NCBI RefSeq assembly: GCF_013167455.1
Contig: NZ_CP038328.1
Reading direction: 5' to 3' (one strand)
Source: Escherichia coli O157:H7
GTDB taxonomy: Bacteria; Pseudomonadota; Gammaproteobacteria; Enterobacterales; Enterobacteriaceae
Length of the DNA stretch: 64,000 nt
Of this stretch, positions 41,980 through 47,066 are shown one piece after another. A program made the position numbers. Position 1 is the first letter of the stretch, and every line of letters begins with the position of its first letter.

Positions 41980-44900
41980 TAAGTTCGCTAAAAAACAGAA
42001 CGGGGCCACAAGGTCCCGTTTTTTTCGCCTTTATTTCGGAAAAGTGTCCAGAGGGGGCGAGGGTTCTCGGGGAGTATAATTCCGTCATTCAGGAAGAATG
42101 GACAGAATGATGCCAAATAGAAAATGGATTTTGACCTCGCTGATAATGACTTTTTTCGGCATCCCCATACTGGCGCAATTTTTGGCAGCGGTTGTTGCCA
42201 TGCTGGGTGTCGGGCTTACCGGTATTATTGAAGTTTGTAATATCCTTATCACGCCAACAATTTATCTTCTACTCAACGTCTTTATGCTGACGCTGGGGGC
42301 GATAATAATATTTTTCTCTGGTCGCGTGTGGGCCGGTGATAGCGCGCCAGAAAACAGAGAAATAGCCGTCTGGCGGCAATGCTTTTTTCTCTTACCCGCG
42401 CTATTAACCCTGGTTGGCTGGATAATCACGCTACATCTGGCAGATTATCAATTTCGCCAGATGGGAGCTGGTTGGTTGGCAAACCTTATGCTTCCCTGGT
42501 TGGGCGTTTTTTTAGTCTCATTAGTGGGTGGTGAGTACTGGTGGATGGTCATTATTCCCGTTGGGGCGCATATCAGTTTTTCGCTGGGATACGCCTGGCC
42601 GACCAGATATCCTTTATCCGGCACGTCCGGACTACGTTGCCGTAACTTACTCCTGTTTCTACTTCTCTTACTTGGTATTGTCGCCGGGTATCAGGCCCAT
42701 TTATATAAGCAGCAAAATCCTGGTGTCGGTGTACGCGAAAATATTGATATCAGGGCCTGGCGACCCGATAAACTCAATAATCGACTGACGCCGCTGCGTG
42801 GCAAACCGCAAATTCAGTTTAGGCAAAACTGGCCGCGAATCGATGGCGCCACGGCTGCGTACCCAATTTATGCTTCTGCATTTTATGCATTAAGTGTAAT
42901 ACCAGAGGATTTTCACGTTTGGGAATATCTGGAGAACTCTCGTACCCCCGATGCATATAACCGGATTGTTAAAGGTGATGCCGATATTATTTTTGTGGCG
43001 CAACCCTCCGGCGGGCAGAAAAAACGCGCTGAGGAATCGGGCGTCACTTTGCTATACACGCCATTTGCCCGTGAAGCATTTGTTTTCATCGTCAATGCGG
43101 ATAATCCGGTTAATTCCCTGACTGAACAACAGGTGCGTGACATTTTCAGTGGTGCAATTACCAATTGGCGTACTGTTGGCGGTAACGATCAGGAGATCCA
43201 GACCTGGCAGCGCCCGGAAGACTCTGGCAGCCAGACAGTGATGCAATCACAGGTCATGAAAAAAGTCCGCATGATCTCGCCGCAGGAAACGGAAGTGGCA
43301 AGCGTGATGGAGGGAATGATTAAAGTCGTTGCCGAATACCGTAATACAAACAACGCAATAGGCTATACCTTCCGCTATTACGCGACGCAAATGAATGCTG
43401 ATAAAAATATAAGATTGCTAGCGATTAACGGTATTACACCGACGGCGGAAAACATTCGCAACGGCAAATATGCGTACATCGTCGATGCATTTATGGTGAC
43501 GAGAGAAAATACAACGTCAGAAACACAAAAACTGGTCGAATGGTTTTTAACGCCGCAGGGGCAGAGTCTGGTAGAAGATGTGGGATATGTGCCGCTGTAT
43601 CTAACAATGGAATAACGCTCGAGAGAAAGGAATCAGCGAGATGAATAAATTCACCGGTGTTTTACTATTAGGCACGGCGTTACTGGCGGGATGTGTCGAC
43701 CGGGAAGGGTACTATAACAGCGTCAGGGAAGAAGAGAGCCATGGACTGACGTCTCTGCGGGGGCAACCTGCATTACGTTACAGCGATGATTGGTCAAGAT
43801 GGCCGAGAGTGTACGGCGCTACAGCCTTATACCCGCTGTATGCCTCCGCGTATTATAAATTAGTACCCGAGCCAAAAGATAAGGATCGAACCTCGCTGGC
43901 CTGGCAGGCGTATGGTTTGCAGCAAACCCGAACAGCTGAAGCCTACGATAGTCTGATTAAAGGTTCCGCGACGGTTATTTTTGTTGCACAACCGTCGGAA
44001 GGACAGAAAAAACGTGCAGAAGAAGCGGGTGTTAAACTGAAATATACCGCTTTCGCCCGCGAAGCCTTTGTCTTTATCGTTGATATTAATAACCCGGTAA
44101 ATTCTCTCTCTGAGCACCAGGTTAAAGATATTTTTAGCGGCAAAACTAGCCGCTGGAATAAAGTAGGTGGTAGTGACGAACATATAAAAGTCTGGCAGCG
44201 CCCTGAAGATTCTGGAAGCCAAACGATTATGAAGGGGTTGGTTATGCAAGACACCCCAATGCTGCCAGCTAAAAAATCCACTGTGATTGATCTTATGGGC
44301 GGTTTAATTACTGAAGTTGCCGACTATCAAAACACGCCATCTTCCATTGGGTACACCTTCCACTATTACGTCACTCGTATGAATGACAATATGCTCAAAA
44401 TGCGCAAGCAGATTAAACTTTTGGCTATAAATGGCGTTGCGCCTACCGAGGAAAATATCCGCAACGGCACTTATCCATACATTGTGGATGCCTATATGGT
44501 GACGCGTGAAAATCCCACGCCGGAAACGCAGAAATTTGTTGACTGGTTTATAAGTCAGCAGGGGCAACAGTTGGTAGAGGATGTGGGGTATGTGCCGCTG
44601 TATGAAGCATCCCCCGAATCATCAGGACAATAATGATGAATATAATCAGACTTTATATTTATCCGTTATTTCTCGGCTTTGTTATTGTACCGTTGTTGGT
44701 GTGGCCGACGGTGGTTGCGCTGGCTGCCTGTGTAATCACGCTGAGTTTTCTGGGAGAAATACTGTTCTCAATCCCGCTCATGCACAGGCGTATTTCCCTT
44801 CTGCAATTACAACTATGGTTATCGGCTGAATATGCGCTTTTCTTCTGTGCAATGGTGGGCGTTGGTTGGCAATTTGCGCGCAGAACGCCACCTGAATTGA

Positions 44901-47066
44901 AAAGCAGACTGCATTGTTGGCTGGTATTTGCACCAGTTTATTTCTGGTTGCTCCTGTGGAATATCATTTTTTATGTCGCGCCAGCGCAAATTGCTTTGCT
45001 GGAAAATATGCGCAGTTTCTTTCTGACAGTTGTCTGGCTCCCACTGAATTTTTCGCCATTTTGGTCTCAACAGTGGATCGACTTTGTCGGTCCGATAAGT
45101 GCACAGCTTGGTTTTGCGTTGGGATATTATTGCCAGTGGCGTAGCAAAAATAGAAGCCAGATACGGAAGTGGAGTGAGTGGGGAACGTGCTTAAGTTTTG
45201 TTACGTTGGGTATGATGGCGTGGGCTTTGCGGTAATTCCCTGAATCAAAAAGTAGGTCAGATTGTTGACAACGTGGCGCTTTGTTCATGCCTGATGCGGC
45301 GTGAACGCCTTATCAGGCCTACAAAATCATGCAAATTCAACATATTGCATAAACCACGTAGGCCTGATAAGCGTAGCGCATCAGGCAATTTTGTGTTTGT
45401 CATCAGTCTCAGGCCAGATTGAAATCTGACCTGATCACCTTACGTTAATTTACGACGCCAGCGACAACTTCTGCTGCGTATATTCCACCAGCCACTGACT
45501 CACACGAGATTGTTGATCCGCATTCAGCCACATGCCTTGTTTTGTGCGACGCCACAGGGCATCGTCGGCGCGGCGGACCCACTCGTGGTCGACCAGATAT
45601 TTCAGCTCCGTTTCGTAGAACTCATGACCGAAATCTTCCCCAAGATCGCTTACCGCTCCCGCATTGCCGAGCAGCAGCTCGCTGTTGCTGCCATAAGTAC
45701 GCGCGTAATGACGTGCCAGCGATTCGGTCAGGAACGGATAACGGCGGCGTAAGCGAGCGGCATAATCGTCGCGGTCGCCCTCGATGGCGCCACCCGGTAG
45801 CACGCTCTCTTTCGTCCATGCCGGGCCAATACCCTGATAATACGGCGTTAGTTTTTCCAGCGCATGTTCCGCCAGTTTTCGGTAGGTGGTCAGCTTACCG
45901 CCGAATACCGACAGCAGCGGTGCTTTGCCATTTTCATCATGAATATCAAGGGTGTAATCACGGGTAATAGCCTGCGGCGAGTCGGACTCATCATCACACA
46001 GCGGACGCACACCGGAGTAGGTCCAGACGATATCGTCACGGCTAAGCTGTTTTTTAAAGTGCGCGTTATACACTTTCAGCAGGTAATTGATTTCACTCTC
46101 TTCAATCTTCACTGCTTTCGGATCGCCTTTGTATTCCACATCGGTGGTGCCGATGATGGAAAACTCGTCCATCCACGGGATCACGAACACAATACGTTTA
46201 TCTTCGTTTTGCAGAATGTAGGCCTGCTTTTGGGTATGCACGCGCGGCACCACAATATGGCTGCCTTTGATCAGGCGAATGCCATAAGGCGAAGGCAGAT
46301 GCATCCCGTCGTCGAAGAACTGTTTCACCCACGGGCCGGTGGCGTTAACCAGGCCGCGCGCTTGCCAGCTATATTTTTTGCCGGTATCGATATCTTCCGC
46401 TTCCACAATCCACAGGCCGTTTTCGCGACGAGCAGAAGTAGCACGAGTACGAGTAAGCACTTCGCCGCCTTTACGCACCACCATCTGGGCGTTGGCGAGC
46501 ACCAGACGGGCATCGTCTACCCAACAGTCGGAATATTCGAATCCGCGCTTAATTTCCGGTTTTAACACTGAATTTGCGCCAAAACGCAAACCAGTTGATC
46601 CCGGCAGGCTGGTGCGTTTACCCAGATGATCGTACATAAACAGACCAATGCGAATCATCCACGCCGGGCGCAGATGCGGACGATGTGGCAGGCGAAAACG
46701 CATCGGGAAGGCGATATGCGGGGCCATTTTCAGCAGCACTTCACGTTCAGCCAGCGCCTCGCTGACCAGGCGGAATTCATAGTGCTCAAGGTAGCGCAGG
46801 CCACCGTGAATGAGTTTTGAACTGGCGGAAGAGGTCGCGCAAGCGAGATCCTGCGCCTCCAGCATCAGCACGGATAAACCGCGTCCAGCGGCGTCTGCCG
46901 CGATACCAGCACCATTGATGCCGCCACCTATCACAATCAGATCTTTGGTTTCCATGCTGCCCTCATTCACTTTCGTTAAAGTTCATAAATGTTCGTTATC
47001 GAACATATTAGCAAAGAATCGCGCTTTAGGTAACATTGAAAAAACATTTTAGAGTGATATGTATAA

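What the first reader, a model, noticed from the sequence alone, without database searches (positions are those of the whole stretch)
42098..45235. Three-gene accessory cluster between glgP and glpD with the same two domains in fused and split form
Gene 1 (505 aa) is a polytopic membrane domain fused to a PstS-like periplasmic binding domain; gene 2 (330 aa) is a lipoprotein carrying a paralogous binding domain (GATA(A/L)YP(I/L)YAS…WQRPEDSGSQT); gene 3 (200 aa) is a membrane protein paralogous to the N-terminal domain of gene 1 (…VGPISAQLGFALGYY vs …IIPVGAHISFSLGYAW). The cluster thus holds a fused and a fissioned copy of the same two-domain unit, with no ABC permease or ATPase partner. From memory, K-12 has only a small remnant here (yzgL), so this appears to be the intact form of a locus decayed in K-12. 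Function is unknown; anion (phosphate-like) sensing or binding at the membrane is a reasonable guess.
Basis: partly seen in the sequence, partly recalled or inferred. Interest (0 to 1): 0.65.

Follow-up and report, generated by a model that had tools for sequence, protein, structure and literature searches.

The report
Membrane-tethered PstS-like protein paralogue cluster
Between glgP and glpD, E. coli O157:H7 carries three intact genes built from two modules, a novel six-helix membrane domain and a phosphate-binding-protein-like domain; they belong to a large uncharacterised family that is not part of a phosphate ABC transporter, and one of them resembles lipoproteins sitting in the immunity position behind an Rhs toxin in other enterobacteria.

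Summary

- **g1 and g2.** The g1 C-terminal domain and the g2 lipoprotein are 57% identical PstS-like domains (E 9e-117).
- **g1 and g3.** g3 is a distant but real paralogue of the g1 membrane domain (hhalign 96%, E 1.6e-9; HMM links; controls negative).
- **K-12.** yzgL is a 2.84-kb deletion remnant fusing the g1 5' end to the g3 3' end.

"Fused plus fissioned copy" is only partly right. g2 is in 16% of complete E. coli genomes and g3 in 71%. g2 belongs to a separate lipoprotein clade, and the TM-only form looks like decay of a downstream fused copy.

The two-domain architecture is widespread across phyla. It never has linked pstCAB genes. Its membrane domain (AF2 pLDDT 90.6) has no fold relatives outside the family. 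The PstS anion clamp is kept, but Asp56 is Ala.

The locus shows cassette polymorphism, and its dS is far above the one flank segment measured. g2's clade sits directly behind a conserved Rhs toxin domain in E. albertii and Salmonella.

Best reading: ABC-independent, membrane-tethered oxyanion-binding envelope proteins. An orphan-immunity role for g2 is a serious and testable alternative.

The parts
42000..42026 (+). glgP terminator-like hairpin (ACGGGGCC-ACAA-GGTCCCGT followed by T7), which separates glgP from the cluster
   Evidence: Read directly from the sequence. It was not listed by the simple scanner.
42098..43615 (+). [not shown]
   Evidence: Pfam; dN/dS 0.13-0.20 between E. coli alleles.
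42098..42715 (+). g1 N-terminal six-helix membrane domain (aa 1-206). Helices: 8-46, 53-81, 87-114, 124-144, 149-169, 176-206.
42836..43600 (+). g1 PstS-like periplasmic-binding domain (aa 247-501), with GATAAYPIY and WQRPEDSGSQT motifs
   Evidence: Pfam PBP_like_2 1.2e-28. TIGR02136 scores 122 bits, below the 206.6 cutoff. Alignment to E. coli PstS.
43641..44633 (+). [not shown]
   Evidence: PDB PstS homologues at E 4e-16; dN/dS 0.11; lipoprotein clade.
44633..45235 (+). [not shown]
   Evidence: dN/dS 0.23-0.27; family found only in Escherichia.
42333..45175 (.). Segment deleted in K-12; its loss created the yzgL pseudogene
   Evidence: blastn of the K-12 glgP-glpD interval against the window; K-12 annotation.
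45289..45386 (.). Pair of inverted REP elements (BIME) between g3 and glpD. They account for the many genome-wide hits to the interval.
   Evidence: Sequence; inverted repeat I3; median of 21 places per genome; marginal Rfam ES036 hit at 45323-45365.

Best explanation
The cluster encodes three envelope proteins assembled from two modules that define a large, uncharacterised family. Module 1 is a six-helix inner-membrane domain seen only in this family. Module 2 is an extracytoplasmic PstS-type (type II periplasmic-binding-protein) domain. g1 carries both modules, g2 is an exported lipoprotein version of the binding module, and g3 is a membrane module without a binding module. They are not components of a phosphate ABC importer. 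The binding module most likely clamps a phosphate-like oxyanion or a phosphoryl group of a periplasmic or envelope ligand at the outer face of the inner membrane. It would do this with the conserved Thr / Thr / Arg-x3-Ser-Gly-Ser site, but without the Asp56 that makes true PstS specific for protonated phosphate. The membrane module is a dedicated partner rather than a passive anchor; it could relay, translocate or organise the bound ligand, possibly as hetero-oligomers with g3. Shown: domain composition, both paralogies, absence of ABC partners in all loci examined, site conservation, purifying selection, family spread. Inferred: periplasmic location of the g1 binding domain, the nature of the ligand, and any activity of the membrane module.
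For: PBP_like_2 matches and PstS structures as nearest solved relatives. In the alignment with E. coli PstS, seven ligand-site or supporting positions are kept (T10, S38->T, R135, D137->E, S139, G140, T141->S). The R-x3-SGS motif is present in 16 of the 17 aligned family members spanning several phyla; the one exception (a Ruminococcus lipoprotein form) reads S-R-N-K-G-S-G-S-Q. g2 and other family members carry signal or lipoprotein sequences or extracellular WG-repeat regions, so the domain works outside the cytoplasm. The strongly basic loop 170-182 (mean K+R 4.4 across 36 sequences) places helix 6 in-to-out. The N-domain HMM finds the same domain fused to this PstS subfamily in Enterobacterales, Budviciaceae, Betaproteobacteria, Campylobacterota, Firmicutes, Verrucomicrobia and Fusobacteria, and in no other protein of 1147. 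Significant Foldseek hits are all enterobacterial: 19 of 21 named phosphate-/PBP-binding proteins and two unnamed Escherichia proteins. At least 2485 protein clusters score E<1e-20. No pstCAB or any conserved neighbour occurs in 79 loci. No Pho box is found in the window. g1 orthologues sit directly after glgP in 14 Enterobacteriaceae species, and in four of them (L018, L023, L025, L026) as the only gene before glpD. dN/dS is 0.11-0.27 for all three genes. Stand-alone membrane-module paralogues under purifying selection recur beside fused genes in Escherichia, Superficieibacter and a Campylobacteraceae MAG, and occur alone in another enterobacterium.
Confidence: 0.45

Rival explanations
1. Orphan immunity (interbacterial defence) cassette. 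g2, and possibly the whole polymorphic array, protects the cell envelope against a periplasm-acting Rhs/T6SS toxin of competing enterobacteria. The PstS-like lipoprotein would neutralise the toxin or shield its phosphorylated target. This is compatible with the binding activity proposed above, but it gives the cluster a different biological role.
For: In E. albertii the only ORF between a PAAR-Rhs gene and the next PAAR/DUF6531 Rhs gene is a g2-clade lipoprotein, starting ~85-105 nt after the Rhs stop. The 131-aa Rhs C-terminal toxin domain is 67% identical to orphan Rhs-CT modules in Salmonella, which are again followed directly by a PstS-like lipoprotein. The same pairing is seen in four further Salmonella assemblies and in one contig from a public sequencing run (Logan) of unidentified organism. 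g2 groups with these lipoproteins in the tree. The toxin domain is absent from all 5426 complete E. coli genomes while g2 is in 885, as expected for an orphan immunity gene. The locus shows several interchangeable cassettes, tandem paralogue expansion and decay. Synonymous divergence is 0.3-0.84 against 0.03-0.10 in the one flank segment measured, a 126-codon piece of glgP, and one strain carries a mosaic of alleles. In Intestinirhabdus two fused copies follow tssM/PAAR of a T6SS cluster. Companion genes at this locus are YbbD-related, and K-12 ybbD lies behind an orphan Rhs fragment in the RhsD element.
Against: There is no toxin, Rhs, PAAR or VgrG gene in the window interval. None of the 79 representative-species loci of the family has a tblastn match (E<=1e-4) to the enterobacterial Rhs core, PAAR or TssM queries used; that test would miss divergent toxin systems, especially in other phyla. 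g2 is only 61-64% identical to the Rhs-linked lipoproteins. The binding domain and its ligand site are conserved across phyla far more strongly than is usual for immunity proteins. g1 is syntenic as a single gene in several genera. The toxin domain has no recognisable family, so a periplasmic site of action is only inferred from the lipoprotein. The lipoprotein is also repeatedly just upstream of PAAR genes, so an effector-accessory role is not excluded.
Confidence: 0.3
2. Conventional phosphate scavenging. g1 and g2 are extra PstS proteins that capture Pi and hand it to the PstCAB permease encoded elsewhere, which is the meaning of the RefSeq name.
For: RefSeq names both 'PstS family phosphate ABC transporter substrate-binding protein'. 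The best NCBIfam and PDB matches are PstS proteins. Most ligand residues are kept.
Against: TIGR02136 scores of 122 and 119 bits are far below the curated cutoff of 206.6. Asp56 is replaced by Ala. No pst genes are linked in any of 79 loci. No Pho box is found. The family-specific membrane domain has no role in this model. The genuine pstSCAB operon exists elsewhere in E. coli.
Confidence: 0.1
3. Functionless remnants of an ancestral gene array that are decaying in Escherichia.
For: The locus is deleted in K-12, frameshifted copies exist in some strains, and array signals are very low (PMC2907692).
Against: All three ORFs are intact in O157. dN/dS of 0.11-0.27 at high dS shows long-term purifying selection. 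The g2/g3 overlap suggests translational coupling.
Confidence: 0.05

Closest known systems
E. coli PstS and the TIGR02136 PstS-family phosphate-binding proteins (e.g. PDB 4q8r, 4gd5, 4exl, 1twy)
   Same: Type II periplasmic-binding fold (Pfam PBP_like_2). Conserved GAT...P.Y and R-x3-S-G-(T/S) anion-binding motifs. Extracytoplasmic location (g2 is a lipoprotein).
   Different: Scores lie below the curated family cutoffs. Asp56 is replaced by Ala. There is no linked pstCAB/phoU and no Pho box. The subfamily has its own motifs (GY[TS]FRYYA, FAREAFVF) and is usually fused to a 200-aa six-helix membrane domain.
Substrate-binding domains fused to ABC permeases (OpuABC/GlnP type), and SBP-dependent secondary transporters (TRAP, TTT)
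   Same: A binding-protein domain is tethered to, or works with, a polytopic membrane protein.
   Different: The membrane domain here has no similarity to BPD_transp_1, DctQM or TctAB in sequence or predicted fold. It shows no internal repeat. No ATPase is linked. Transport is not demonstrated.
K-12 yzgL (b3427) pseudogene
   Same: It is the first ~75 codons of g1 at the same position after glgP.
   Different: It is a 2.84-kb deletion product joined out of frame to the g3 3' end. O157 has the intact genes.
Periplasmic or lipoprotein immunity proteins of T6SS/Rhs effectors (e.g. Tli, Tsi, Tai, RhsI)
   Same: g2-clade lipoproteins occupy the gene slot immediately after an Rhs C-terminal toxin domain in E. 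albertii and Salmonella. The locus shows array expansion and orphan copies.
   Different: No known immunity family has a PstS-like fold (no mention in the polymorphic-toxin survey PMC3482391). The O157 copy has no toxin neighbour. Neutralisation is untested.

Membership tests
PstS / phosphate ABC transporter substrate-binding protein | Type II PBP fold, detected as Pfam PBP_like_2 | tested here: met
   g1 aa 247-485 at 1.2e-28; g2 aa 94-306 at 8e-30. PDB PstS hits down to 4e-16.
PstS / phosphate ABC transporter substrate-binding protein | Score above the curated NCBIfam cutoff (TIGR02136 206.6 bits; TIGR00975 205 bits) | tested here: not met
   122.2 and 119.1 bits for TIGR02136; 15.8 bits for TIGR00975.
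PstS / phosphate ABC transporter substrate-binding protein | Full set of phosphate ligands (T10, F11 backbone, S38, D56, R135, S139, G140, T141 of E. coli PstS, recalled from the solved structure) | tested here: inconclusive
   T10, S38->T, R135, S139, G140 and T141->S are kept, and D56->Ala, in g1, g2 and most relatives. The alignment was made here; the residue list comes from memory of the literature.
PstS / phosphate ABC transporter substrate-binding protein | Genetic linkage to pstC/pstA/pstB | tested here: not met
   None in the window interval. No conserved neighbour in 79 loci from many phyla. The true pstSCAB operon lies elsewhere in E. coli.
PstS / phosphate ABC transporter substrate-binding protein | Pho-box promoter / induction by phosphate limitation | tested here: not met
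   No Pho-box match with up to 3 mismatches anywhere in the window. Induction itself was not testable.
ABC importer with fused substrate-binding domain | Membrane domain of the BPD_transp_1 type with a partner ATPase | tested here: not met
   No Pfam hit on aa 1-215. No structural neighbour. No ATPase gene adjacent.
Six-helix-domain + PstS-like family (unnamed; defined here) | N-domain HMM match, plus a C-domain with the GY[TS]FRYYA and QR-x3-SGSQ motifs | tested here: met
   g1 carries both. g2 carries the C-domain only and g3 the N-domain only.
Rhs/T6SS immunity protein | Encoded immediately downstream of the cognate toxin domain | tested here: not met
   No Rhs-CT, PAAR or VgrG in the window. 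The feature is met for g2's relatives in E. albertii, Salmonella and one unidentified contig.
Rhs/T6SS immunity protein | Specific neutralisation of the toxin | not testable with these tools
   Requires co-expression and competition assays.

The most novel reading that the evidence does not exclude
A PstS-type periplasmic binding domain has been recruited as an immunity protein against a previously undescribed, periplasm-acting Rhs/T6SS toxin domain. On this reading, O-island 133 of O157:H7 is an orphan immunity island whose paralogues (lipoprotein, membrane-tethered and membrane-only forms) protect a phosphorylated envelope target. This would add a new fold and possibly a new mode of immunity (shielding or sequestering the target's phosphate group) to interbacterial antagonism. 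It would also give a first function to a family of thousands of 'PstS family' annotations.
Probability: 0.3. Interest if true: 0.75.

Novelty: new variant of a known kind. Interest (0 to 1): 0.55.

Why it matters
Thousands of proteins in gut and environmental bacteria are auto-annotated as phosphate ABC transporter binding proteins. They in fact carry a dedicated, structurally unprecedented membrane domain and have no ABC partner, so the annotation is probably wrong in kind. In E. coli the locus is a cassette-polymorphic site separating O157 from K-12 (O-island 133). Its deletion lowered type III secretion in one published screen (PMC3378721) and was never followed up. The repeated pairing of g2-like lipoproteins with one Rhs toxin domain gives a concrete, cheap experiment that could reveal both a new toxin and a new immunity fold.

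Tried and rejected
- **BLASTP and shuffled Smith-Waterman, g1 N-domain vs g3:** not significant or marginal. Profile methods were needed.
- **AF2 of full-length g1 with a 7-sequence alignment:** poor (pLDDT 52). Only the N-domain model with 36 sequences was usable.
- **Foldseek against AFDB50:** all 21 significant hits are enterobacterial proteins (19 named phosphate/PBP-binding, 2 unnamed). No known fold or transporter class could be assigned.
- **Internal 3+3 repeat in the N-domain:** none.
- **PADLOC defence models:** nothing for g3, the g1 N-domain or companion genes.
- **NCBIfam and Pfam for the B-type companion genes:** only a weak YbbD-like N-terminal match.
- **Conserved gene neighbours across phyla:** none. 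An ABC-F ATPase and a lipoprotein trio are lineage-specific.
- **Pho box:** none.
- **Promoter and terminator scans:** uninformative.
- **Rhs toxin domain:** no Pfam, NCBIfam or PDB match. It is rare in the protein database (3 hits) and absent from complete E. coli genomes.
- **Membrane topology:** could not be settled. Charge bias favours a cytoplasmic loop 170-182 and an external C-terminus, but the basic N-tail conflicts with an even helix count.
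Full report
**1. What is in the window**

The window is E. coli O157:H7; the region is 100% identical to strain PV15-279.

After the glgP stop (41982) and a terminator-like hairpin (42000-42026) come three co-oriented ORFs:
- g1, 42098-43615 (505 aa; RefSeq starts it at 42107)
- g2, 43641-44633 (330 aa)
- g3, 44633-45235 (200 aa), whose ATG shares a base with the g2 stop

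A pair of REP elements (45289-45386) and the convergent glpD gene follow.

**2. Checking the two paralogies**

*Binding module.* g1 residues 224-501 and g2 residues 30-321 are 57% identical (E 9e-117). A 180-nt stretch is still 76% identical as DNA. Both match Pfam PBP_like_2, and their nearest solved relatives are PstS proteins.

I therefore built family alignments:
- A1, for g1-type N-domains, taken from an exhaustive search of 1.84 billion representatives that gave only 48 hits
- A2, for g3, whose family occurs only in Escherichia

hhalign gives 96.3% probability, E 1.6e-9, with 165-172 collinear columns starting at residue ~3 of both proteins.

Controls:
- reversed profile: 0.9%
- 20 block-shuffled profiles: scores of at most 41.5 against 66.4 for the real comparison
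- the two halves of the domain against each other: 4%

An HMM made only from g1-type domains also hits:
- a g3-like protein of Superficieibacter at 5e-22, which is 36% identical to g3 (8e-27)
- g3 orthologues at 1.7e-6 to 2.4e-4
- none of 100 unrelated polytopic proteins in the same database

Both paralogies are real.

**3. The K-12 remnant**

The K-12 glgP-glpD interval aligns to window 41817-42332 and 45176-45568. The gap corresponds to a 2.84-kb deletion. YzgL is g1 residues ~1-75 read through into the 3' end of g3 in another frame.

**4. Why "fused plus fissioned" is not the best description**

- *Prevalence.* g2 is present in 885 of 5426 complete E. coli genomes, and g3 in 3828.
- *Other locus types lack g2*:
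  - g1 + 236-aa + 255-aa soluble proteins + a g3 allele
  - g1 + 255 + g3
  - a fimbrial operon + 236 + 258 + g3
  - the K-12 deletion
- *Separate clade.* g2 has its own lipobox. In a neighbour-joining tree of binding domains (no bootstrap) it groups with lipoprotein-only proteins of Pseudocitrobacter (72-75%), Salmonella and E. albertii (61-68%), not with g1.
- *Decay, not fission.* In Pseudocitrobacter the g2-like lipoprotein is followed, with overlapping stop and start, by a 351-aa protein. That protein consists of the membrane module plus a PstS module with its central ~140 residues deleted. This caught-in-the-act intermediate suggests that membrane-only genes such as g3 arise by loss of the binding module from a downstream fused copy.
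- *Tandem arrays elsewhere.* Tandem fused copies exist in Intestinirhabdus and Klebsiella spallanzanii, and an E. coli strain (TA054) has three binding-module genes in a row.

**5. The family**

A scan of one genome per GTDB species, using two motifs of the binding module, returned 79 loci. In most of them the PstS-like domain (36-67% identical to g1) is preceded by a ~200-aa region with 5-8 hydrophobic segments.

Iterated HMM searches show this region is the same domain in Enterobacterales, Budviciaceae, Betaproteobacteria, Campylobacterota, Firmicutes, Verrucomicrobia, Fusobacteria and Desulfovibrionaceae. There were no false hits among ~1050 other proteins.

Other members carry a lipobox, a single TM, a short 3-4-TM anchor (Treponema) or extracellular WG repeats. 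The protein database holds at least 2485 clusters at E<1e-20, all auto-named PstS-family proteins.

No gene is a conserved neighbour across phyla, and no pst genes are linked.

In 14 Enterobacteriaceae species the fused gene sits immediately after glgP. In four of these loci (L018, L023, L025, L026) it is the only gene before glpD. Salmonella and Leclercia have a second paralogue between ruvC and ruvA.

**6. Structure**

With a 36-sequence alignment AF2 gives a confident model of the membrane module (pLDDT 90.6, pTM 0.87). It has six helices, the first 39 residues long.

- Foldseek against AFDB50 gives 21 significant hits, all enterobacterial: 19 are named phosphate- or PBP-binding proteins and 2 are unnamed Escherichia proteins. 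Weaker hits include PBP-domain proteins of other lineages.
- There is no internal repeat.

Conserved positions are mostly Pro, Gly and aromatic residues, plus one Arg at the start of helix 3 and a Gln in helix 5 (His158 in g1).

*Topology.* The loop before helix 6 is strongly basic across the family (K+R 4.4). Together with the exported paralogues, this argues that helix 6 runs in-to-out and that the binding module is periplasmic. The basic N-tail conflicts with an even helix count, so topology needs experiment.

**7. The binding site**

Aligned to E. coli PstS (sequence fetched), g1, g2 and most relatives keep T10 (GAT), S38 (as Thr), R135, D137 (as Glu), S139, G140 and T141 (as Ser). D56, the residue that selects protonated phosphate over sulfate, is Ala.

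The R-x3-SGS motif is present in 16 of the 17 aligned family members; one Ruminococcus lipoprotein form departs from it. The Thr10 equivalent is Glu, Ile or Ala in a few distant members.

Scores against the curated PstS models are about 60% of the cutoff. No Pho box is present.

The module is therefore PstS-like in fold and anion clamp, but it fails the membership tests for a phosphate ABC transporter component.

**8. Population genetics**

| Gene / control | dN/dS | dS |
|---|---|---|
| g1 | 0.13-0.20 | 0.08-0.41 |
| g2 | 0.11 | 0.33 |
| g3 | 0.23-0.27 | 0.24-0.84 |
| last 126 codons of glgP (control) | – | 0.03-0.10 |

These values compare E. coli alleles. The genes are maintained by selection, yet their alleles are much older than the one adjacent core-gene segment measured. 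The control is short and single, so the contrast is indicative rather than precise.

One strain (NCTC9040) has g2 identical to O157 but g3 only 87.5% identical, which indicates a mosaic. Together with cassette replacement and paralogue expansion and decay, this is the pattern of a locus under conflict-type or diversifying pressures.

**9. The Rhs/T6SS connection**

This emerged when I looked up where g2-like lipoproteins are encoded.

- *E. albertii.* The order is hcp, vgrG, a PAAR-Rhs gene (frameshifted in this assembly), then a g2-clade lipoprotein as the only ORF, then the next PAAR/DUF6531 Rhs gene.
- *Salmonella.* The 131-aa toxin domain after the Rhs DPxGL motif is 67% identical to orphan Rhs-CT modules, again followed directly by a PstS-like lipoprotein. 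These lie inside arrays with further PAAR-toxin/immunity modules (M91-like peptidase, Ntox34/HEAT).
- *More cases.* Four more Salmonella assemblies and one contig from a public sequencing run (organism not identified) show the same pairing.
- *Toxin domain.* It has no Pfam, NCBIfam or PDB match and is absent from all complete E. coli genomes.
- *Intestinirhabdus.* Two fused copies follow tssM/PAAR of a T6SS cluster.
- *YbbD relatives.* The companion gene in Salmonella carries a YbbD_head domain homologous to K-12 ybbD, which lies behind an orphan Rhs fragment in the RhsD element. The 236-aa B-type gene shares its N-terminus.

By position, the g2-clade lipoproteins are the best candidates for the immunity proteins of this Rhs toxin.

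Against extending this to the whole family:
- None of the 79 representative loci has a tblastn match to the Rhs-core, PAAR or TssM queries I used. Those queries were enterobacterial sequences at E<=1e-4, so divergent toxin systems in other phyla would have been missed.
- g2 is only 61-64% identical to the Rhs-linked proteins.

**10. Verdict**

The best-supported account is that OI-133 encodes paralogues of an uncharacterised, ABC-independent family of membrane-tethered PstS-like oxyanion-binding envelope proteins with a dedicated novel membrane module (confidence ~0.45).

The main rival overlaps with it: the cluster, and g2 in particular, acts as orphan immunity against a periplasm-acting Rhs toxin (~0.3).

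Conventional phosphate scavenging (~0.1) and functionless decay (~0.05) are unlikely.

The only phenotype in the literature is reduced type III secretion in an OI-133 deletion mutant in a screen. It was not complemented or followed up (PMC3378721; restated in PMC10877973).

Noticed in passing
L106 2759-8521 (E. albertii contig JAEHKJ010000022.1): The order is hcp - vgrG - PAAR-Rhs (frameshifted) - PstS-like lipoprotein - next PAAR/DUF6531 Rhs. The 131-aa Rhs C-terminal toxin domain has no Pfam, NCBIfam or PDB match. It is always followed by a PstS-like lipoprotein, also in Salmonella (L099/L100, L108-L111) and in L107.
   Followed up: partly
L099 1-12993 (Salmonella enterica contig DBHMGN010000006.1): Orphan polymorphic-toxin array. 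It contains an ISAs1/H-repeat fragment, two orphan Rhs-CT modules, a PAAR fragment with an M91-like HExxH toxin and a 154-aa lipoprotein, a second PAAR with Ntox34 and a HEAT-repeat protein, and several small lipoproteins. Two PstS-like lipoproteins are interleaved.
   Followed up: partly
L101 7002-8057 (Pseudocitrobacter): A 351-aa protein consisting of the family membrane domain plus a PstS-like domain that lacks the equivalent of g1 residues ~326-464. It looks like an intermediate between a fused gene and a membrane-only gene such as g3.
   Followed up: yes
L002 3231-4711 (E. coli record NZ_CP026085.1) and related loci: Alternative cassette at the same site: two soluble proteins of 236 and 255 aa with no Pfam family. 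The N-terminus of the 236-aa protein resembles a Salmonella YbbD_head protein, which is homologous to K-12 ybbD in the RhsD element.
   Followed up: partly
L002 (NZ_CP026085.1, labelled 'strain DH5alpha'): The record carries the g1 + 236 + 255 + g3 locus type rather than the K-12 yzgL deletion, and it is 4.83 Mb long. It is probably not a K-12 derivative, so the strain label may be wrong.
   Followed up: no
window 45323-45365: Rfam ES036 (CssrF) sRNA hit just above threshold (39.3 against 37.6 bits). It lies between two inverted REP elements (45289-45322 and 45358-45386) and is probably REP-derived.
   Followed up: no
window 21674-21738: RyhB sRNA, a full-length Rfam match (83 bits).
   Followed up: no
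window 42098-42112: The g1 start codon is ambiguous. ATG at 42098 has an AGGAAG only 2 nt upstream. RefSeq uses 42107 (spacer ~9). The K-12 YzgL annotation corresponds to 42110.
   Followed up: no
L103 (E. coli NCTC9040) and L102 (GTEN_23): NCTC9040 has g2 100% identical in protein to O157, but g1 is 96.8% and g3 only 87.5% identical, which implies a recombination breakpoint inside the cluster. GTEN_23 has a frameshifted g3.
   Followed up: partly
L007 7446-7868, L101 8231-8659, also L022, L024, L029, L104/L105: A secreted ~140-aa Gly/Asn/Ser-rich repeat protein (repeats like 'RDxNGNxxG') recurs immediately before glpD in several enterobacterial genera, next to family members. No family match was found.
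   Followed up: no
L098 8001-9497 (Salmonella) and L040 (Leclercia): A second, more divergent fused paralogue (41% identity to g1) lies in a different place. In Salmonella it sits between ruvC and ruvA, beside a C92 peptidase gene; the Leclercia neighbours were not annotated here.
   Followed up: no
L012/L013 1-5757 (Intestinirhabdus-like contigs): The end of a T6SS cluster (DUF6708 protein, PAAR, a 407-aa protein with no family, TssM) is inserted at the glgP-glpD site directly upstream of two tandem fused family genes.
   Followed up: partly
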